DNA from: Gammaproteobacteria bacterium
GTDB taxonomy: Bacteria; Pseudomonadota; Gammaproteobacteria; SZUA-140
Length of the DNA: 64,000 nt
Direction of reading: 5' to 3'
NCBI GenBank assembly: GCA_020845975.1
Contig: JADLET010000084.1
Span: 2,509 to 66,508 of the forward strand
Shown here piece after piece: positions 6,294-11,964 of the stretch. The notes under the pieces were generated by a model, which saw nothing but the letters and a program-made list of their open reading frames with translations, searched no databases and was not told the origin of the DNA. The translations under genes were made by a program, and so were the position numbers. Within the stretch, counting starts at the first letter, position 1. Each line of letters opens with the position of its first letter.

Positions 6294-7067
6294 TTACAGC
6301 TCGCAGTCGTAGTCGATGGTCAGCGGAGCGTGATCGGAAAAGCGCTCGTCCTTGTAGATGGACACCATCCTGACCCGATCCTTCAGTCCGGGCGTGATTA
6401 CCTGGTAGTCGATGCGCCAGCCGACGTTCTTGGCCCAGGCCTGACCGCGATTGGACCACCAGGTGTACTGGTCCGCCTCCTGATTGACGACACGGAAGGC
6501 GTCGACGAAACCGAGCGGCACGAACAACTGGTCCATCCAGGCGCGCTCCTCGGGAAGAAAGCCGGAGTTCTTCTGATTGCCGCGCCAGTTCTTGATGTCC
6601 AGTTTTGTATGCGCGATGTTCCAGTCGCCGCAGATGACATACTCGCGTTTCCCGCAGCGAAATTCCTTGAGCACCGGGGTGAAGCGTTCCAGAAAATCGA
6701 ACTTCACCGCCTGGCGGTCCTCACTGCTGGAACCCGACGGAAGATACAGCGAGATCACACTGAGCGAACCGAAATCCGCCTGGATGAAACGCCCCTCCCG
6801 ATCCATGTCCGGCCAGCCGAGCCCCATCGTGACCTGGTCGGGCTCGCGCCGGCAATAGAGCGCCACGCCGCTGTAACCCTTCTTCTCCGCATCGTGATAA
6901 TAGGCGAAGTAACCGGCCGGCCTCAGCAACTCATCGTTCAGCTGATGCTCCTGCGACTTGGTCTCCTGCAGACACACCACATCGGCGCCCTGTCGCGCGA
7001 GCCACGGGAAGAAACCCTTGCGGGCAGCCGAGCGTATGCCATTGGCGTTCAGGCTGATGATGCGCAT
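6294..7067 (-). CDS. xthA: Exodeoxyribonuclease III
   Basis: MRIISLNANGIR N-terminus and C-terminal SDHAPL motif. Start re-placed on the internal ATG preceded by AGGGA (8 nt). The ORF-track start at 7100 is a GTG. Confidence 0.85.
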   Translation of the reverse strand: MRIISLNANGIRSAARKGFFPWLARQGADVVCLQETKSQEHQLNDELLRPAGYFAYYHDAEKKGYSGVALYCRREPDQVTMGLGWPDMDREGRFIQADFGSLSVISLYLPSGSSSEDRQAVKFDFLERFTPVLKEFRCGKREYVICGDWNIAHTKLDIKNWRGNQKNSGFLPEERAWMDQLFVPLGFVDAFRVVNQEADQYTWWSNRGQAWAKNVGWRIDYQVITPGLKDRVRMVSIYKDERFSDHAPLTIDYDCEL

Positions 7068-7163
7068 CAATGCCATCCCTTGCTTGTCTGTCGAAGGCAC
7101 CGATGATACTGGAGCCGACGCGCGGCGTGAATTTGGAAGGCGCGGGAATTTTCCATGGATTGC

Positions 7164-7196
7164 TTGACATCTGAAAATTTCATCTCACACTAGACC
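7164..7196 (+). promoter_or_regulatory. Putative sigma70-like promoter for the leader transcript (TTGACA at 7164-7169 with a weak -10); orientation ambiguous
   Basis: Perfect TTGACA hexamer in the AT-richer stretch ttgcTTGACAtctgaaaatttcatctcacactagacc. The -10 is poor. It could equally be read on the minus strand as an xthA promoter. Confidence 0.25.
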
Positions 7197-7693
7197 GATC
7201 AGCGCTCCACGCAGAAGGGAGCAGAGGGGGATGAAACGGTCGCGCTCCGCCGTCAAGCACCCGCACGCACTGGACTGGTCCGGTCCCGGCTCGACTGCCG
7301 TGGCGACGAGGATGCGGTCCCGGGTTCCGCTTCTCCCCGGATACGGCGACACCGCCGTCATCACCGCCCTCTATCCGCTCTCCCATACACCATCGCGTAC
7401 ATGGTCCGGCCGCACCCCGGGCGCATGACGTCACCCGCGTTTCTCCCCGGGCAAGGATGTCCATCGGGGAAACCGGCGCGGTCCGGCGGGTCTCCGCCGG
7501 ACCGCACCGTAATCCCGCCAGTCAGGCGGGATGCAGGCAAGACACCGGTCGCACCGCCATGGAAGCGGTCGCCCGTCCGCAATCCGCAGCATATCCGGCC
7601 ATGGCACAAACGGGATGCCGACAACCTGCGACACGTAACAGACAGCGGTCATCCTCACGCACGCACGCAACGGCCGGATAACGGTACGACATG

Positions 7694-7722
7694 AAAAAAA
7701 GCGGCCTGAATGCCGCTTTTTC
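7694..7722 (+). terminator. Intrinsic (rho-independent) terminator, bidirectional shape, 43 nt upstream of the parA-like start codon
   Basis: aaaaaaaGCGGCctgaatGCCGCttttt: GC stem, 6-nt loop, A-tract before and T-tract after. Confidence 0.7.
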
Positions 7723-7764
7723 ATGCCCATAAATGCCGTCGTCACGGGTGGAGGGACACGACAC

Positions 7765-8892
7765 ATGATCACGATCGCCATCGCCAATCAAAAGGGGGGA
7801 TGCGGCAAAACCACCGCCGCCATCAATCTGGCCGCCGCGCTGGGACGCAATGGCCATCGCGTACTGCTGGTCGACACCGATCCCCAGGGCCATGCCTCGC
7901 TGGGACTGGGACAACACTGCGGCAATCTGAACGGATTGTACGAGGTATTCATCCAGGAAGCAGAGCTCAGCGAGGTCATCATCCCCGCGGTAGCGCCCGG
8001 AGTCGATCTGGTGCCGTCGACCATCTCGCTCGCCGCCATCGAACACCTGCTGGCGGATCTGCCCCGCCGCGAGCGCCAGCTCGCGCAGCATCTGGACAGC
8101 CTGCCCCTGAACTACGACTTCGCCATCATCGACTGCCCGCCCACGCTCGGCCTGCTCTCATTCAATGCCTTGCGCGCCGCGGACCTGGTGCTGATACCGG
8201 TGGAGATGAGCGTGTTCGCGCTGGACGGGGTGGACCGCCTGCGTGACACCATCGAACTGCTGGCGGAAAAATACGAACTCGACATACCGGTACGCATACT
8301 GCCCAATCTGGTTGATCACCGCACCCGCTTCACGCAGGACACGCTGCATCGCCTGAAGGAGCGCTTCGGCGAGGAGATCCTCCCGGTGAGCATTCACTAT
8401 ACCGTGCGACTGAAGGAGGCCGCGGCGCGCGGCATACCCATCATCGATCACCAGCCCGGCTCGGTGGCGAGCGACAATTATCTCGCCCTGGCGGCGGAGA
8501 TCCTCCGCTTCAATGCGCAGACCATGCCTCGCGCACAGTCCGCGCGCGCTCCGTACGACGTCCCCCTTCCCGTCAGCCGCACTGTGGAAGAGCCGGATGA
8601 CGCGGATTACCGGCGGGACGTCAGCATGATCTTCCACGGACCCGCCGGGATCGATATCCAGATCGCCGGCGACTTCAACGGCTGGGCGCCCGATCAGGGG
8701 GTGGTGACGGAACGTCATGACGACATGCTGATCAAGACCCTGCATGTCGGTCCAGGACGCTATCAATACCGCCTGATCGTCAACGGGGAATGGCGCGCCG
8801 ACCCCACCAACCCGCGCTTCGAGACCAATGAATACGGCGAGATCAATTCCGTGCTCGAAGTGGAGGACATCCCGCACCTCGTCCCCGCATGA
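7765..8892 (+). CDS. ParA/MinD-family (deviant Walker A) ATPase fused to a C-terminal AMPK-beta glycogen-binding-like (CBM48/E-set) domain
   Basis: Start placed at the ATG giving MITIAIANQKGGCGKTT (KGGxGKT deviant Walker A), with GGAGGG SD 9 nt upstream. The ORF-track ATG at 7723 lies inside the terminator T-tract. The C-terminal ~90 aa VSMIFHGPAGIDIQIAGDFNGWAPD...GPGRYQYRLIVNGEWRADPTNPRF...NSVLEV matches the AMPK1_CBM/CBM48 consensus (F.W.G..V.L.GSFNNW...G.HQYKF.VDG.W..DP..P). Confidence 0.8.
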   Translation: MITIAIANQKGGCGKTTAAINLAAALGRNGHRVLLVDTDPQGHASLGLGQHCGNLNGLYEVFIQEAELSEVIIPAVAPGVDLVPSTISLAAIEHLLADLPRRERQLAQHLDSLPLNYDFAIIDCPPTLGLLSFNALRAADLVLIPVEMSVFALDGVDRLRDTIELLAEKYELDIPVRILPNLVDHRTRFTQDTLHRLKERFGEEILPVSIHYTVRLKEAAARGIPIIDHQPGSVASDNYLALAAEILRFNAQTMPRAQSARAPYDVPLPVSRTVEEPDDADYRRDVSMIFHGPAGIDIQIAGDFNGWAPDQGVVTERHDDMLIKTLHVGPGRYQYRLIVNGEWRADPTNPRFETNEYGEINSVLEVEDIPHLVPA

Positions 8893-9602
8893 TACGCCGC
8901 CCGGAGGACACCGGACCGAAGGAGCGGCTGCAGAGCATCAGTCGCCATTTCCTCGATGAGGGACATTCCCCCCGCTGCATTGCCGTGCTCGGCGTTGCTG
9001 AAAACCCTCATGCCATCCCCATCGATGGCCTGGCCCGCGCACTGGCCGGACGCGGCATCGCGGTCGCCGTCACGGACACGGCCGCGAAACTGCTTGTGCA
9101 TGTTTGCCAGGAACCTGGCGGCATCAGACCCGCCACTGACATCGCGCCATTGTCCAGAGGCCGCGACGACACGCTGGCCAGGCCGCGCCGCGGAGCGCCT
9201 CCCGAATTGATGCTCATCACGACCCCACCGACGGATGCCCGGACCTGCTCCCTGATATTGCTGGCCGTTCCGGCGCAGGCACATGGCATGCGCTCCGCCT
9301 ATCGCAGACTCAAGGGTCTGGCGCGACTCAATCCCATGCCCGCGATCGGAATCACACTGACCGATGCCCGCACATGCGACGAGGCGGCCGCCGGTTTCGC
9401 CCGCTTCGCATCCGCGGCCAGGCGCTTTCTCGGCATCGGGGTCACCAGTTACTCGTACCTCGCCGCCGGCCGGACACGCGGTGAAGACGAGGCATCACTC
9501 AACGATATCGCACGCCTGCTGCTGGCCGATCTGCGCCGCGCGGACCAGGCTGATCAGCTGATGAAATCGCCGGACCAGGAGGCGCCATGGGTATGCGGAT
9601 AA
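8889..9602 (+). CDS. Hypothetical protein with a degenerate ParA/MinD-like fold lacking a P-loop (candidate partner of the upstream ATPase)
   Basis: ATGA start/stop overlap with the upstream gene. Secondary-structure-like pattern CIAVLGV...GIAVAVTDTA...ELMLITTPP...LILLAVP...GITLTDA resembles the ParA core but has no GxxGxGK[ST]. Confidence 0.55.
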   Translation: MIRRPEDTGPKERLQSISRHFLDEGHSPRCIAVLGVAENPHAIPIDGLARALAGRGIAVAVTDTAAKLLVHVCQEPGGIRPATDIAPLSRGRDDTLARPRRGAPPELMLITTPPTDARTCSLILLAVPAQAHGMRSAYRRLKGLARLNPMPAIGITLTDARTCDEAAAGFARFASAARRFLGIGVTSYSYLAAGRTRGEDEASLNDIARLLLADLRRADQADQLMKSPDQEAPWVCG

Positions 9603-10162
9603 AAACCCTCACACTGACATCCGGACAGATCCTGCGTGAACTGATCGTGGATGCCTTGCCGCAAATCCTCGGGGAGGATTTCTCGATCGTCAGCGCTGAC
9701 CTCCCGTTCGATGGCAGCCTGATGCTGTGCCTGGATGCGAAACGACATCCGGCGCTGGTGGCCTTCGATGCCCGCGACAGTGGTCGCGCGCTGCTGGCGG
9801 CTCTGCGTGCCGTGGAAAGACTGGGAGACAACCGCGGCATGCTGTTTCGTCTCTATCCCGCGCTGTTCCCGGACAATGGCCGCCACTTCCCTGAGAACGA
9901 ACTTCGCCTCGTACTGCTCGCACCGGAAGCGCCCCCGGGCACGGCGTATCTTGCCCGCGCCTTTCCGGCCCTGAGTGCTTATACCTTTCGCATCCTGGAG
10001 ATCGACGGAAACCTCGGGCTGCTGGTCGATCCGGCCGCGACCGACACCGGGCGCATCGAGGACGGGGTTCCGCCGGAGACGCCATGCGCGCCGTTCCGCT
10101 GCGGCCTCGACCCCGGGCAGGCGCTCAGCGCACAGGAGGAGCGTCACTTCGCGGACGCCTGA
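9587..10162 (+). CDS. Hypothetical protein (third gene of the ParA-like operon)
   Basis: Overlaps the stop of the previous gene by 16 nt. No recognisable motif. High-GC codon usage consistent with host. Confidence 0.5.
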   Translation: MGMRIKTLTLTSGQILRELIVDALPQILGEDFSIVSADLPFDGSLMLCLDAKRHPALVAFDARDSGRALLAALRAVERLGDNRGMLFRLYPALFPDNGRHFPENELRLVLLAPEAPPGTAYLARAFPALSAYTFRILEIDGNLGLLVDPAATDTGRIEDGVPPETPCAPFRCGLDPGQALSAQEERHFADA

Positions 10163-10229: not shown

Positions 10230-10883
10230 ATGCAGGACTATCAGCAGGCCTTTCTCGACTTCGCCATCGCCCGCGGCGTGCTGCGCTTCGGCGAGTTCAC
10301 CCTAAAGTCGGGGCGCCTGAGCCCGTATTTCTTCAACAGCGGACTGTTCGATGACGGCGACGCCATCGCCGAACTGGGGCGCTACTACGCGGCCGCGATC
10401 CGCGCTTCCGGCATCGCCTTCGACATGCTGTACGGCCCGGCCTACAAGGGCATCCCGCTGGTCGTCGCCACCGCGATCGCGCTCAGCGACCGCCACGGCG
10501 TCAACGTCCCCTACGCCTTCAACCGCAAGGAGGCCAAGGACCACGGCGAGGGCGGCATCATCGTCGGCCGCGCGCTCACGGGCCGCGTGCTGATCATCGA
10601 CGACGTGATCTCCGCCGGCACCTCGGTGCGCGAATCGGTGGACATCATCCACCACGCCGGCGCGACCGTGGCCGGCGTCGCCATCTCACTCGACCGCCAG
10701 GAACGCGGCAAGAACGCGCAGTCCGCCATCCAGGAGGTCGAGGCGCAGTTCGGCATCAAGGTCGCCAGCATCGCCAACCTCGACACGCTGATCCGCTATA
10801 TATCAAAGCGCGCCGATCTCGGGCCAGTGCTGGAACGCATCGAGGATTATAGGAAACAATACGGCGCAAAAGGCGCAGCCTGA
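10230..10883 (+). CDS. pyrE: Orotate phosphoribosyltransferase
   Basis: [36 protein letters not shown] and the PRPP-binding [13 protein letters not shown] motif. 217 aa. Confidence 0.95.
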
Positions 10884-10899: not shown

Positions 10900-11056
10900 C
10901 CAGATGAAGGCGCAGAGCGCCGGAATCCGGGAGCATCTATCTAAGACAATCCCCGGATTCCGCTACGCTTCATCCAGGCTACGCTTGCTGTCATTGTCCA
11001 AGGCCAGCAGTTCGATCCCACACAAAGTTGGCCTCGCAAGAAACACTCAACCCAAC

Positions 11057-11476
11057 CTAGGCCTGTTTCAGCGACACTCCATCCGGAATGTAATGCACAT
11101 TGCTTTGGAATTGCTCCCGCCAGCTCCAAAGGTATTCGGTTAGTTTCTGAACTCGGTTTTTACTTAGACAATTCACAGACTGGTCTTGAGTTATGAATTG
11201 AAATAGCTCTTGACCAACATCCTCTCGGCACCACATTGAAAATTTCGTGAGTTCATTTAGTTCTCGATAATTGATTGCCAACGTCATTGGCTCGAATTTT
11301 ATTCTGCTCAGAGCATGGACAATTGCAGTCCGTTCGTAAGAAACACCTAATCTTACACACATCTGCTCGGCCACGTCTGCCCCTGCAAGCCCTTTCTCCC
11401 ACGCCTTATCCGCATTAACACACAGGTACATTAGAAATGCAGACCATTCTCCTGATACTTCAATTTGTCGGCCCAT
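11057..11476 (-). CDS. Hypothetical protein B of the low-GC two-gene cassette (139 aa)
   Basis: ~40% GC. Start placed at the ATG with GAGGAGG SD 10 nt upstream; the ORF-track first codon is TTG. The SD overlaps the stop codon of upstream gene A. No recognisable domain. Confidence 0.6.
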   Translation of the reverse strand: MGRQIEVSGEWSAFLMYLCVNADKAWEKGLAGADVAEQMCVRLGVSYERTAIVHALSRIKFEPMTLAINYRELNELTKFSMWCREDVGQELFQFITQDQSVNCLSKNRVQKLTEYLWSWREQFQSNVHYIPDGVSLKQA

Positions 11477-11491
11477 AACTTCCAAGCCTCC

Positions 11492-11884
11492 TCAAATTGT
11501 GGCATTGAAATATTGCTTCAAGCTTGTGTTAATCCCACCAGACGCATACGTAACAATATGAGTTGACGTGTCAACTGATACAAATTTAATTCCCGGGTGG
11601 TGTCTATCTTCGTATGTGCCGGGGTTATTGTAGATCTCCTGCATAACAGAAACTGGCATTAGATAATACACGGCGGCACTTCCACAAACCCATAGCTCGT
11701 AGTCAGCGGATAACGTGTTTGGATTGATATTGAACTTGTATTTTTCTGGAGCGCGCGAACTCTGAGAACAGAACCGAACATGAACTATGGAACCTTTAAT
11801 CTTATATTTGGCTTTTCCAAGGAAAGAAATATCTGACCCATTTGCAATCACCGATAATGCAGATTTCTTTTCTGCAGTGCTCAT
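11492..11884 (-). CDS. Hypothetical protein A of the low-GC two-gene cassette (130 aa)
   Basis: ATG with AGGA 8 nt upstream (aaaaggaaaacgccATG). AT-rich codon usage unlike the host. No recognisable domain. Confidence 0.6.
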   Translation of the reverse strand: MSTAEKKSALSVIANGSDISFLGKAKYKIKGSIVHVRFCSQSSRAPEKYKFNINPNTLSADYELWVCGSAAVYYLMPVSVMQEIYNNPGTYEDRHHPGIKFVSVDTSTHIVTYASGGINTSLKQYFNATI

Positions 11885-11964
11885 GGCGTTTTCCTTTTCA
11901 AATGATAATTCAACGTAATTAGAATTCGACAGCCTTGACGTATAAATCTACCAATCTAATTCAT

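What the first reader, a model, noticed from the sequence alone, without database searches (positions are those of the whole stretch)
8889..9602. Degenerate ParA/MinD-like protein lacking the Walker A P-loop
The sequence keeps the beta-strand / hydrophobic-core periodicity of the ParA fold (CIAVLGV, GIAVAVTDTA, ELMLITTPP, LILLAVP, GITLTDA) but has no GxxGxGK[ST]. A catalytically dead ParA paralogue encoded next to an active one could act as a heterodimeric partner or regulator. This is by analogy with pseudo-ATPase partners in other P-loop families. It is inference from pattern only.
Basis: inference. Interest (0 to 1): 0.5.

Follow-up and report, generated by a model that had tools for sequence, protein, structure and literature searches.

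The report
P-loop-less FlhG-like partner of ParA
The gene is real and encodes a protein with the fold of the ParA/MinD ATPases, closest to the flagellar regulator FlhG, that has lost every ATP-binding motif. It always sits just downstream of an intact ParA ATPase that carries a glycogen-binding-type module, so it is most likely that ATPase's dedicated regulatory partner in an undescribed positioning system.

Summary

**The ATP site is gone.** It has no Walker A and no Walker B aspartate. None of about 55 close family representatives has a P-loop.

**It is not a recent copy of the neighbouring ParA** (hhalign probability 2%). It belongs to an unannotated family:
- 136 cluster representatives, with no Pfam, NCBIfam or PADLOC hit.
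- It links at hhalign 99.7% to deeper relatives. Some of those keep GKT plus the Walker B aspartate, and one reaches Pfam's CbiA threshold.

**The gene context is fixed.**
- In all 23 gammaproteobacterial loci found, it lies directly downstream of an intact ParA (KGGCGKT) fused to an AMPK-beta-type CBM48.
- The same holds in 4 of 5 distant loci, including Omnitrophota.
- A NucS-fold protein usually follows, and four relatives are natural fusions of the two.
- A MerR gene usually precedes ParA.

**Most likely role.** The best-conserved element is an N-terminal peptide, [KR]xRLxxISHHFLS; deeper relatives carry KLGRGLxDVSHxFLS. I infer it is a ParB- or FlhG-style activating peptide, so the protein is probably ParA's regulator or adaptor. 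The cargo, possibly glycogen, is speculative.

The parts
7765..8892 (+). ParA-type ATPase fused to a C-terminal AMPK-beta-type carbohydrate-binding module (CBM48). The likely true start is ATG 7765, with GGAGG 9 nt upstream. The ORF finder's start at 7723 lies inside a hairpin/T-run.
   Evidence: Pfam AAA_31 at 6.5e-51, CbiA at 3.5e-23 and AMPK1_CBM at 2.1e-11. NCBIfam ParA_partition at 6.6e-37, below its cutoff. Alignment of 17 orthologues. Start inferred.
7792..7812 (+). Intact deviant Walker A (KGGCGKT) of the upstream ParA.
   Evidence: NQKGGCGKTT is invariant in 17 orthologues.
8644..8868 (+). CBM48 / AMPK1_CBM domain of ParA. The FNxW and DGxW tryptophans and the GxxN asparagine are kept. 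An arginine stands where AMPK beta has a lysine.
   Evidence: phmmer against PDB hits the AMPK beta1/beta2 CBM at E 7e-9 to 2e-7, and the plant LSF1 and SEX4 CBM48 domains. Invariant columns.
8889..9602 (+). The finding: a 237-aa FlhG/MinD-fold pseudo-ATPase with no Walker A or Walker B. Its start overlaps the parA stop (ATGA).
8919..8957 (+). N-terminal conserved peptide K11-E-R-L-Q-S-I-S-R-H-F-L-D23 (family consensus [KR]xRLxxISHHFLS). It is the most conserved 10-residue block of the family and a candidate ParA-activating or ParA-binding peptide.
   Evidence: Block 11-20 carries 2.97 bits per column against 2.3 or less elsewhere. The model shows a helix at 10-21 on a low-confidence arm. Deeper relatives carry KLGRGLxDVSHxFLS.
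8988..9020 (+). Degenerate P-loop position (L34-GVAENPHAI-P44) between strand 1 and the following helix.
   Evidence: It aligns with GGKGGVGKT of FleN and with SGDKVPGKT of P0133.
9587..10162 (+). 191-aa NucS-like (PD-(D/E)xK-fold) protein that overlaps the ORF2 end by 16 nt. It forms a functional unit with ORF2.
10124..10153 (+). Conserved acidic/aromatic C-terminal tail of ORF3 (LSAQEERHFA; family consensus LSxEEExFF).
   Evidence: Alignment A5. The same tail sits on the FlhG-like protein P0130 and on the fusion proteins.
7101..7764 (.). Conserved GC-rich stretch with no credible ORF upstream of parA. It occupies the slot where most related loci carry a MerR_1 gene, and it ends in a hairpin with flanking A/T runs. 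Whether it belongs to the module is unknown.
   Evidence: 90% identity to L001. No Rfam hit. Fold z-score -4.9 on the minus strand and -2.4 on the plus strand. MerR is present in other loci.

Best explanation
ORF2 is an evolutionarily degenerate, catalytically dead member of the ParA/MinD superfamily, closest to the FlhG/FleN branch. It no longer binds ATP. It serves as the dedicated partner of the ParA-CBM48 ATPase encoded just upstream.

**Proposed mechanism (inferred).**
- A flexible N-terminal peptide, [KR]xRLxxISHHFLS, docks on the ATP-bound ParA dimer and tunes its ATPase. ParB, ParG, PomX and McdB N-terminal peptides do this for their ParA-type ATPases, and the FlhG N-terminus (DQAxxLR) does it for FlhF.
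- The P-loop-less MinD-fold body acts as a scaffold or dimerisation module.
- Together with the downstream NucS-fold protein ORF3, which is fused to it in some organisms, it links the ATPase cycle to a third component.

**Proposed system.** The whole module is (MerR) - ParA-CBM48 - pseudo-FlhG - NucS-like. I propose it is a ParA-type positioning system. Because the ATPase itself carries a glycogen-type carbohydrate-binding module, its cargo is plausibly alpha-glucan (glycogen) granules.

**Shown here:** gene reality, fold, loss of motifs, strict synteny, the fusion with ORF3, and conservation of the N-terminal peptide.

**Inferred:** peptide-mediated ATPase regulation, scaffold role and cargo.
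For: **Fold.**
- The Foldseek top 10 are all FlhG or FleN.
- A profile against PDB gives a weak but in-register FleN match, including the shared AYxxxK helix.

**Sequence bridge.**
- The tail of the profile search reaches bona fide CbiA/ParA/AAA_31 proteins.
- hhalign scores 99.7% (E 6e-26) against the KLGRGL group. In that group P0111 passes Pfam's CbiA cutoff, and P0133 and P0152 fall just below it.

**Loss of the catalytic site.**
- There is no Walker A or Walker B.
- Among deeper relatives, the four that keep GKT also keep the Walker B aspartate (VDTSP / IDTPP). The others have lost both.

**Partnership.**
- In 23 of 23 gammaproteobacterial loci the gene is immediately downstream of ParA-CBM48 on the same strand.
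- The same holds for the distant P0133, P0152 (Omnitrophota), P0109 and P0111.
- The start overlaps the parA stop by ATGA.

**Unit with ORF3.**
- The two genes overlap by 16 nt.
- ORF3 is present in 17 of the 23 other gammaproteobacterial loci, 18 of 24 counting the window.
- Four natural fusion proteins exist.

**N-terminal peptide.**
- It is the most conserved block of the family.
- It sits on a low-confidence N-terminal arm.
- Deeper relatives carry KLGRGLxDVSHxFLS. [quoted passage not shown] By my own recollection it also resembles the LGRGL-type N-termini of ParB.
- The FlhG N-terminus is documented to activate FlhF (bioRxiv 10.1101/2022.03.19.484964 and PMC12826062).

**Glycogen link.**
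- The CBM domain matches the AMPK beta CBM at 7e-9, with the key Trp/Trp/Asn kept and invariant.
- One Omnitrophota locus has a GH57 branching enzyme and a DUF4912/Glucodextran_B gene 2-3 kb downstream.
Against: - No physical interaction or ATPase effect was tested, and no co-fold was possible.
- The N-terminal motif is similar to ParB and FlhG peptides only in character and position. It is not demonstrably homologous to them.
- The model is of moderate confidence: pLDDT 74, with residues 80-101 disordered.
- A P-loop-less protein could still bind a nucleotide or another ligand in an unconventional way.
- The glycogen link rests on one domain annotation and one neighbourhood. The gammaproteobacterial loci sit among unrelated housekeeping genes (xthA, pyrE).
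- MerR is absent from the window and from L001, so the module is not uniform.
- The ORF3 model is good in only 1 of 5 AF2 runs.
Confidence: 0.5

Rival explanations
1. ORF2 forms a MinD-type face-to-face heterodimer with a ParA-CBM48 monomer. It occupies the canonical dimer interface as a dead subunit and so caps, sequesters or asymmetrically activates the ATPase.
For: - Both proteins have the same fold.
- The genes are strictly co-located and translationally coupled.
- The helix carrying the conserved AYxxLK motif (K142 is 98% conserved) corresponds to the dimer-interface helix region of FleN.
Against: - ParA/MinD sandwich dimers are held together largely by the two nucleotides and the signature lysines (established knowledge). 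ORF2 has neither.
- ORF2 is very distant from the neighbouring ParA (hhalign probability 2%), so interface complementarity is not expected by descent.
- This model does not explain why the N-terminal peptide is the best-conserved element.
Confidence: 0.2
2. ORF2 acts like FleN as an anti-activator. Its main target would be a transcription factor, namely the MerR-family protein encoded upstream of parA in most loci, rather than ParA.
For: - FleN is the second-best structural match, and FleN-FleQ complexes are among the top hits.
- A MerR_1 gene precedes parA in 14 of 16 loci that have enough upstream sequence.
- In L038 a MerR_1 gene directly precedes the FlhG-like gene with no ParA adjacent.
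Against: - The window and L001 keep ORF2 but have no MerR gene in the module.
- FleN's action on FleQ depends on ATP (established knowledge), and ORF2 cannot bind ATP in the canonical way.
- ParA-CBM48 linkage is more universal than MerR linkage.
Confidence: 0.12
3. ORF2 is still a nucleotide- or ligand-binding switch that uses a non-canonical site. It would then be a cryptic enzyme or sensor rather than a pseudo-ATPase.
For: - Some ParA/MinD members place key lysines elsewhere in the sequence (review PMC11407121).
- K142 and D63 are well conserved in the close family.
Against: - The P-loop position is variable, rich in Pro and Asp, and has insertions and deletions across the family.
- D63 is not conserved in the wider family.
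- Walker B is absent.
- GKT and the Walker B aspartate are lost together in deeper relatives, which indicates true decay of the site.
Confidence: 0.06
4. ORF2 is a decaying relic of a duplicated ATPase gene and has no function.
For: It has lost its catalytic motifs.
Against: - It is conserved in length, motifs and position across at least 23 gammaproteobacterial species genomes and in Omnitrophota.
- The profile search finds 136 representatives at 50% clustering.
- No frameshifts or stops are present.
- The N-terminal motif is strongly conserved.
Confidence: 0.02

Closest known systems
FlhG / FleN (YlxH, MinD-type ATPase that controls flagellar number)
   Same: - The overall architecture is shared: a short conserved N-terminal regulatory peptide on a flexible arm, followed by a MinD-fold domain.
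- The AYxxxK helix motif is shared.
- FlhG also regulates a partner NTPase (FlhF) through its N-terminus.
   Different: - ORF2 has no deviant Walker A and no Walker B aspartate.
- I saw no C-terminal amphipathic membrane-targeting helix by eye (no hydrophobic-moment computation was run).
- Its N-terminal motif is [KR]xRLxxISHHFLS, not DQAxxLR.
- Its genomic partner is a ParA-CBM48 ATPase, not FlhF, and the context is not flagellar.
ParB / ParG / PomX / McdB-type ATPase-activating partner proteins of ParA-family ATPases
   Same: - The gene lies immediately downstream of its ParA gene.
- It has a conserved N-terminal peptide of aliphatic plus basic residues. Deeper relatives read KLGRGL..., like ParB N-termini.
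- It is combined with further domains, in the way ParB combines the peptide with DNA-binding and dimerisation domains.
   Different: - The body of the protein is itself a degenerate ParA/MinD-fold domain. I know of no described ParA partner with that fold (own knowledge; no such case in the 2024 review).
- It has no ParB/Srx, RHH or coiled-coil domain.
- Activation of the ATPase is not shown.
ParA/Soj and McdA-type nucleoid-based positioning ATPases (for the upstream gene)
   Same: - It has the deviant Walker A KGGCGKT and strong AAA_31, CbiA and ParA profile matches.
- It forms an operon with a partner protein.
   Different: - It carries a C-terminal AMPK-beta-type CBM48 on the ATPase itself.
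- It stays below the NCBIfam ParA_partition cutoff (127 against 180 bits).
- I found no literature on this architecture.
NucS / PD-(D/E)xK nuclease fold (for ORF3, the functional partner of ORF2)
   Different: - The (D/E)xK lysine position is not conserved across the family (alignment A5).
- ORF3 has a disordered linker and an acidic/aromatic LSxEEExFF tail.
- There is no Pfam or PADLOC match.
- The model is moderate and only 1 of 5 runs converged.

Membership tests
ParA/MinD (SIMIBI, deviant Walker A) ATPase superfamily | MinD/ParA-type alpha/beta fold | tested here: met
   [not shown]
ParA/MinD (SIMIBI, deviant Walker A) ATPase superfamily | Deviant Walker A KGGxxGK[ST] (P-loop with signature lysine) | tested here: not met
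   No G-x4-GK[ST] in ORF2. Among the 55 relatives that carry its N-terminal motif, the only regex match is incidental (P0024, off the P-loop position). The aligned position reads GVAENPHAI.
ParA/MinD (SIMIBI, deviant Walker A) ATPase superfamily | Walker B aspartate at the end of the hydrophobic strand (hhhhD-x-P/G) | tested here: not met
   ORF2 reads LMLITTPP where ParA has IIDCPP and where GKT-retaining relatives have VVDTSP / IIDTPP.
ParA/MinD (SIMIBI, deviant Walker A) ATPase superfamily | Detectable sequence homology to family profiles | tested here: inconclusive
   There is no direct Pfam or NCBIfam hit. Homology is shown only transitively. The family profile reaches proteins with CbiA/ParA/AAA_31 hits. 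hhalign gives 99.7% to a group in which P0111 passes the CbiA cutoff.
ParA/MinD (SIMIBI, deviant Walker A) ATPase superfamily | ATP binding, ATP-dependent dimerisation and hydrolysis | not testable with these tools
   Needs biochemistry. The sequence predicts none.
FlhG / FleN subfamily | N-terminal DQAxxLR activator motif | tested here: not met
   ORF2 has KERLQSISRHFLD at the equivalent N-terminal position. The DQAxGLR motif occurs only in the weak tail of the profile search.
FlhG / FleN subfamily | C-terminal amphipathic membrane-targeting helix | tested here: inconclusive
   The last conserved helix (DIARLLLxDxR) aligns with the last core helix of relatives. It is followed by a variable, low-confidence tail. 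No hydrophobic-moment test was run.
FlhG / FleN subfamily | Genomic association with flhF / fliA flagellar genes | tested here: not met
   The window context is xthA - parA-CBM48 - ORF2 - ORF3 - pyrE. The same module occurs in 23 loci. By contrast P0119 (DQA type) sits upstream of a fliA-like gene.
ParA partner / ATPase-activating proteins (ParB-, PomX-, McdB-like; a functional class) | Encoded adjacent to, and co-oriented with, the cognate ParA-family ATPase | tested here: met
   23 of 23 gammaproteobacterial loci. 4 of 5 distant loci (the exception is L038). ATGA overlap.
ParA partner / ATPase-activating proteins (ParB-, PomX-, McdB-like; a functional class) | Flexible N-terminal peptide with conserved aliphatic and basic residues | tested here: met
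   [KR]11-x-R13-L14-x-x-I17-S-H-H-F21-L22 is the most conserved block. It sits on a low-pLDDT arm. The motif description comes from PMC12462528.
ParA partner / ATPase-activating proteins (ParB-, PomX-, McdB-like; a functional class) | Stimulates the ATPase of its ParA and binds the cargo | not testable with these tools
   Needs ATPase assays, binding assays or a co-fold prediction.

The most novel reading that the evidence does not exclude
The module (MerR) - ParA-CBM48 - P-loop-less FlhG-like protein - NucS-fold protein is a previously undescribed, phylum-spanning ParA-type positioning system.
- The ATPase itself grips the cargo through a glycogen-binding module, which points to alpha-glucan (glycogen) granules.
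- The ATPase-activating partner evolved from a second MinD/FlhG-type ATPase by complete loss of its nucleotide site, while keeping a ParB- or FlhG-like N-terminal activating peptide.
- This would be the first ParA partner protein built on a dead ParA/MinD fold, and the first dedicated system for spatial organisation of a storage polysaccharide in bacteria.
Probability: 0.3. Interest if true: 0.8.

Novelty: new variant of a known kind. Interest (0 to 1): 0.65.

Why it matters
**A possible new kind of ParA partner.**
- ParA/MinD ATPases position chromosomes, plasmids, carboxysomes, chemoreceptor arrays, flagella and division sites.
- In every described system the partner that stimulates the ATPase belongs to an unrelated fold.
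- A conserved partner that is itself a dead MinD/FlhG-fold protein would show a new evolutionary route to such partners: duplication or recruitment of a second ATPase, followed by loss of catalysis.
- The relatives found here seem to preserve intermediate states. Some keep GKT and the Walker B aspartate, and others have lost both.

**A possible new cargo.** The ATPase carries an AMPK-type glycogen-binding module. That makes a concrete, testable proposal about how bacteria organise or inherit glycogen, for which no dedicated machinery is known.

**A gap in annotation.** The family has 136 or more representatives at 50% clustering. All are annotated as hypothetical, and they match no Pfam, NCBIfam or PADLOC model.

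Tried and rejected
**Searches that found nothing or little.**
- Direct family searches on ORF2 and ORF3 (Pfam, NCBIfam, PADLOC) gave no hits. A defence-system reading was considered because of the NucS/HamA/Shedu-like fold. I rejected it because there are no PADLOC hits, the chromosomal context is conserved, and the GC content is native.
- phmmer of ORF2 against PDB returned only noise. The profile version gave a sub-threshold FleN hit, useful only as a register check.
- hhalign of the ORF2 family against the neighbouring ParA family gave probability 2%. I therefore rejected the 'recent tandem duplicate of the adjacent ParA' idea.
- Literature searches for ParA + CBM48 / glycogen / AMPK1_CBM found nothing relevant. 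The 2024 ParA/MinD review does not mention it.
- The third protein-database search, with profile A4, added little because of the candidate cap.

- The search for related loci with alignments A2 and A4 failed for lack of a conserved stretch. I replaced it with a degenerate DNA pattern for RLxxISHHFLS[DE].
- The Foldseek afdb50 library was unavailable.
- No co-fold of ParA with ORF2 was possible.

**False leads.**
- Nine of the 32 pattern hits were spurious short frames: five Poribacteria, two Tumidithrix, one Scytonema and one Brevibacillus. A tenth, L003, is an unclassified MAG with the same frame as the Poribacteria hits.
- Upstream of parA in the window, Rfam found nothing and tblastn found no MerR remnant. 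No copies of that stretch occur in other loci apart from L001.
Full report
**1. What is at the coordinates**

Window 8889-9602 (+) is an intact ORF of 237 aa.
- Its ATG overlaps the stop of the upstream gene by ATGA (GCATGATAC).
- Its last 16 nt overlap the start of a downstream ORF, 9587-10162, which is preceded by AGGAGG.
- The three genes therefore look like one translationally coupled operon.
- They are flanked by xthA (minus strand, 6294-7100) and pyrE (10230-10883).
- GC content is the same as the surroundings.

The window comes from an uncultured gammaproteobacterium. The ORF3 product is 100% identical to a protein of a 'MAG: Gammaproteobacteria bacterium'.

**2. The gene is real**

- ORF2 has ten close homologues at 44-94% identity with conserved length and many invariant residues.
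- A profile search of 1.84 billion cluster representatives finds 136 proteins at E <= 1e-3 and 53 at E <= 1e-10.
- Every one for which a source name was retrieved is called 'hypothetical', apart from one JGI 'MinD-like ATPase' label.
- ORF2 matches no Pfam, NCBIfam or PADLOC model.

**3. Fold**

An AlphaFold2 model built from the 11-sequence alignment has pLDDT 74 and pTM 0.71. Its core is well defined, and residues 1-8, 18-25 and 80-101 are disordered.
- Foldseek independently puts only FlhG and FleN chains in its top ten, E 3.5e-7 to 2e-4.
- The family profile gives a weak match to FleN in PDB (E 0.07), but in register. 'rIAVLg..d.h.lpvdgLARALAgrGvaVaviD' aligns with 'iAVtGGKGGVGKTnVSvNLAlALAdLGrrVmLLD'. 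The helix 'GMRsAYlaLKaL' aligns with 'sitDAYALIKLL'.

**4. Homology by sequence**

- The tail of the profile search contains genuine CbiA/ParA/AAA_31 proteins: 12 of 51 scanned.
- A group of deeper relatives (alignment A8) is related to the ORF2 family at hhalign probability 99.7%, E 6e-26, over the whole length.
- In that group P0111 passes Pfam's CbiA cutoff (27.8 against 25.4 bits). P0133 and P0152 fall just below it.
- By contrast, the ORF2 family and the neighbouring ParA family are barely related: probability 2%, E 0.022, though aligned in register.
- So ORF2 is an ancient, strongly diverged member of the superfamily on the FlhG/FleN side. It is not a recent duplicate of its neighbour.

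**5. The nucleotide site is gone**

- ORF2 has no G-x4-GK[ST]. Among the 55 relatives that carry its N-terminal motif, the regex matches only P0024, in the helix after the P-loop position.
- The P-loop position is a variable loop rich in Pro and Asp (GVAENPHAI).
- The Walker B aspartate is replaced: LMLITTPP against IIDCPP.
- The switch-I aspartate (D63) is conserved only in the closest relatives.
- Within the deeper group, the four proteins that keep GKT (P0133, P0142, P0108, P0132) also keep the Walker B aspartate (VDTSP / IDTPP). The rest have lost both.
- This pattern of joint retention or joint loss argues for genuine decay of the catalytic site, not misalignment.

**6. Genomic linkage**

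A scan of 185,579 species genomes for a back-translated RLxxISHHFLS[DE] pattern returned 32 loci.
- Ten of them are spurious short frames. Nine are in Poribacteria, cyanobacteria or Brevibacillus, and one (L003) is in an unclassified MAG with the same frame as the Poribacteria hits.
- Adding L001, retrieved separately by protein look-up, to the 22 genuine pattern loci gives 23 gammaproteobacterial loci. The named ones come from Ectothiorhodospiraceae, Chromatiaceae/Chromatiales, Acidiferrobacterales and Thiohalobacterales MAGs.
- In every one of the 23, the ORF2 homologue lies directly downstream of a ParA gene with a C-terminal CBM, on the same strand.

The linkage extends to distant relatives.
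- P0133 has ParA + AMPK1_CBM upstream.
- So do P0152 from Candidatus Omnitrophota, P0109 and P0111.
- The only exception seen is L038, which has an IS1595 transposase nearby. It still has a MerR_1 gene directly upstream.

**7. The upstream ATPase**

- It has strong AAA_31, CbiA and ParA matches and an invariant NQKGGCGKTT.
- After a variable linker comes an AMPK1_CBM domain. That domain matches the AMPK beta1/beta2 carbohydrate-binding modules and the plant LSF1 and SEX4 CBM48 domains (E 7e-9 to 9e-3).
- The residues aligned with the AMPK beta sugar-binding Trp, Trp and Asn are invariant in 17 orthologues. An Arg replaces the Lys. The AMPK numbering (W100, K126, W133, N150) is from my own knowledge.
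- The real start is probably ATG 7765 (GGAGG 9 nt upstream). ATG 7723 lies in a hairpin/T-run.

**8. The downstream protein and MerR**

ORF3 (191 aa) has 13 homologues.
- It follows ORF2 in 17 of the 23 other gammaproteobacterial loci, so 18 of 24 loci including the window.
- A subclade lacks it and has a convergent GGDEF-EAL gene instead.
- An ORF3-like protein with the same tail also follows the Omnitrophota homologue.
- The (D/E)xK lysine position is not conserved, so catalysis is doubtful.
- It ends in a conserved acidic/aromatic tail, LSxEEExFF.

Four independent representatives (P0044, P0069, P0077, P0085; 426-469 aa) are end-to-end fusions of an ORF2-type protein and an ORF3-type protein. 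BLASTP of the C-terminal halves against window ORF3 gives 2e-41 and 1e-16. In addition, P0130 carries the ORF3-type tail on the FlhG-like protein itself. ORF2 and ORF3 therefore act as a unit.

A MerR_1 protein with a conserved C-terminal ...GELFPE tail is encoded directly upstream of parA in 14 of 16 loci with enough upstream sequence. In the window and L001 that slot holds a 0.66-kb conserved non-coding stretch instead.

**9. The N-terminal peptide**

- Across 54 diverse members, residues 11-20 (KERLQSISRH) form the most conserved ten-residue block: 2.97 bits per column against 2.3 or less elsewhere. R13, L14, I17, F21 and L22 are 85-91% conserved.
- The model places it as a short helix on a low-confidence arm ahead of strand 1.
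- Deeper relatives have KLGRGLxDVSHxFLS at the same place. By my own knowledge this resembles the LGRGL-type ParA-binding N-terminus of ParB.
- The ParB motif is described as aliphatic residues around a central Arg/Lys. It is sufficient as a peptide to stimulate ParA, and it binds at the ParA dimer interface (PMC12462528).
- The still more distant FlhG-like tail of the search carries DQAxGLR. That is the FlhG motif which activates the FlhF GTPase (bioRxiv 10.1101/2022.03.19.484964; PMC12826062).
- So all three neighbouring families share the architecture 'N-terminal NTPase-regulating peptide + MinD fold'.

**10. Interpretation**

Shown:
- ORF2 is a conserved FlhG/MinD-fold protein without a nucleotide site.
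- It is locked to a ParA-CBM48 ATPase.
- It is functionally fused to a NucS-fold protein.

Inferred (about 0.45-0.5):
- It is the ATPase-regulating partner or adaptor of ParA-CBM48 and acts through its N-terminal peptide.
- The dead MinD-fold body serves as scaffold.

Rivals:
It is disfavoured because such dimers depend on the nucleotide and the signature lysine that ORF2 lacks, and because it leaves the conservation of the peptide unexplained.
- A FleN-like anti-activator role toward the MerR protein (about 0.12).
- A cryptic ligand-binding switch (about 0.06).
- A functionless relic (about 0.02).

The cargo of the system is unknown.
- For glycogen: the CBM48 on the ATPase, and a GH57 branching-enzyme / DUF4912 neighbourhood in one Omnitrophota locus.
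- Against over-reading this: the gammaproteobacterial loci give no metabolic hint.

**11. Novelty**

- No paper found links a ParA-family ATPase with CBM48 or glycogen, or describes a P-loop-less MinD-fold partner.
- I rate the finding a new variant of a known kind: a ParA/MinD-type system with an unprecedented partner fold and ATPase architecture.
- There is a fair chance that the whole module is a new positioning system.

Noticed in passing
window 7101-7764: A 0.66-kb GC-rich stretch between xthA and parA has no credible ORF. It is 90% identical to the MAG locus L001 and has no Rfam match. It ends in a hairpin, GCGGCCTGAATGCCGC, flanked by A7 and T5. The minus strand folds with z -4.9 and the plus strand with z -2.4. 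It occupies the slot where most related loci carry a MerR_1 gene. It may be an unknown structured RNA or a regulatory region.
   Followed up: partly
L007 2722-3228 (+), and 13 other loci directly upstream of parA-CBM48; L038 2954-3472: A MerR_1-family HTH protein (~160-180 aa) with a conserved C-terminal domain and a ...GELFPE tail belongs to the module in 14 of 16 loci with enough upstream sequence. It is missing from the window and from L001.
   Followed up: partly
P0044, P0069, P0077, P0085 (metagenomic proteins, 426-469 aa): These are natural fusions of an ORF2-type pseudo-FlhG domain with an ORF3-type NucS-fold domain, including the LSxEEExFF tail. They are Rosetta-stone evidence that the two window genes act together.
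   Followed up: yes
L036 182-1021 (protein P0119), with relatives P0120, P0122, P0131, P0138, P0139: These FlhG/FleN-like proteins have the DQAxGLRRL N-terminus but no Walker A. P0119 lies directly upstream of a fliA-like sigma-factor gene. P-loop-less FlhG proteins may therefore also exist inside flagellar clusters.
   Followed up: partly
L034 7554-10430 (Candidatus Omnitrophota MAG): A DUF4912 + Glucodextran_B protein and a GH57 branching enzyme (Glyco_hydro_57 + BE_C) lie 2-3 kb downstream of the ParA-CBM48 / FlhG-like / ORF3-like module. This is the only contextual hint of a link to alpha-glucan metabolism.
   Followed up: partly
window 10900-11900: GC content drops to about 0.55 against 0.64 in the flanks. 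Two minus-strand ORFs (11057-11485 and 11492-11884) of unknown function lie between pyrE and a TauE-family gene. L001 has a different 223-aa gene in this position. It is likely a small foreign insertion.
   Followed up: no
L001 8696-9301: The ORF3 orthologue in MAG GCA_016716465.1 is split by a frameshift, and both halves remain similar to window ORF3. This is either an assembly error or a recent pseudogenisation. The public gene call there is a 71-aa fragment.
   Followed up: partly
L004, L011, L027, L028, L031 (Candidatus Poribacteria MAGs); L003 (unclassified MAG): The degenerate DNA pattern hit the same short, stop-bounded sequence (translated ...HQIKLFDTFWRVQNDYQIMVLTKVQ...) in six genomes. 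It looks like a conserved repeated element unrelated to this finding.
   Followed up: no
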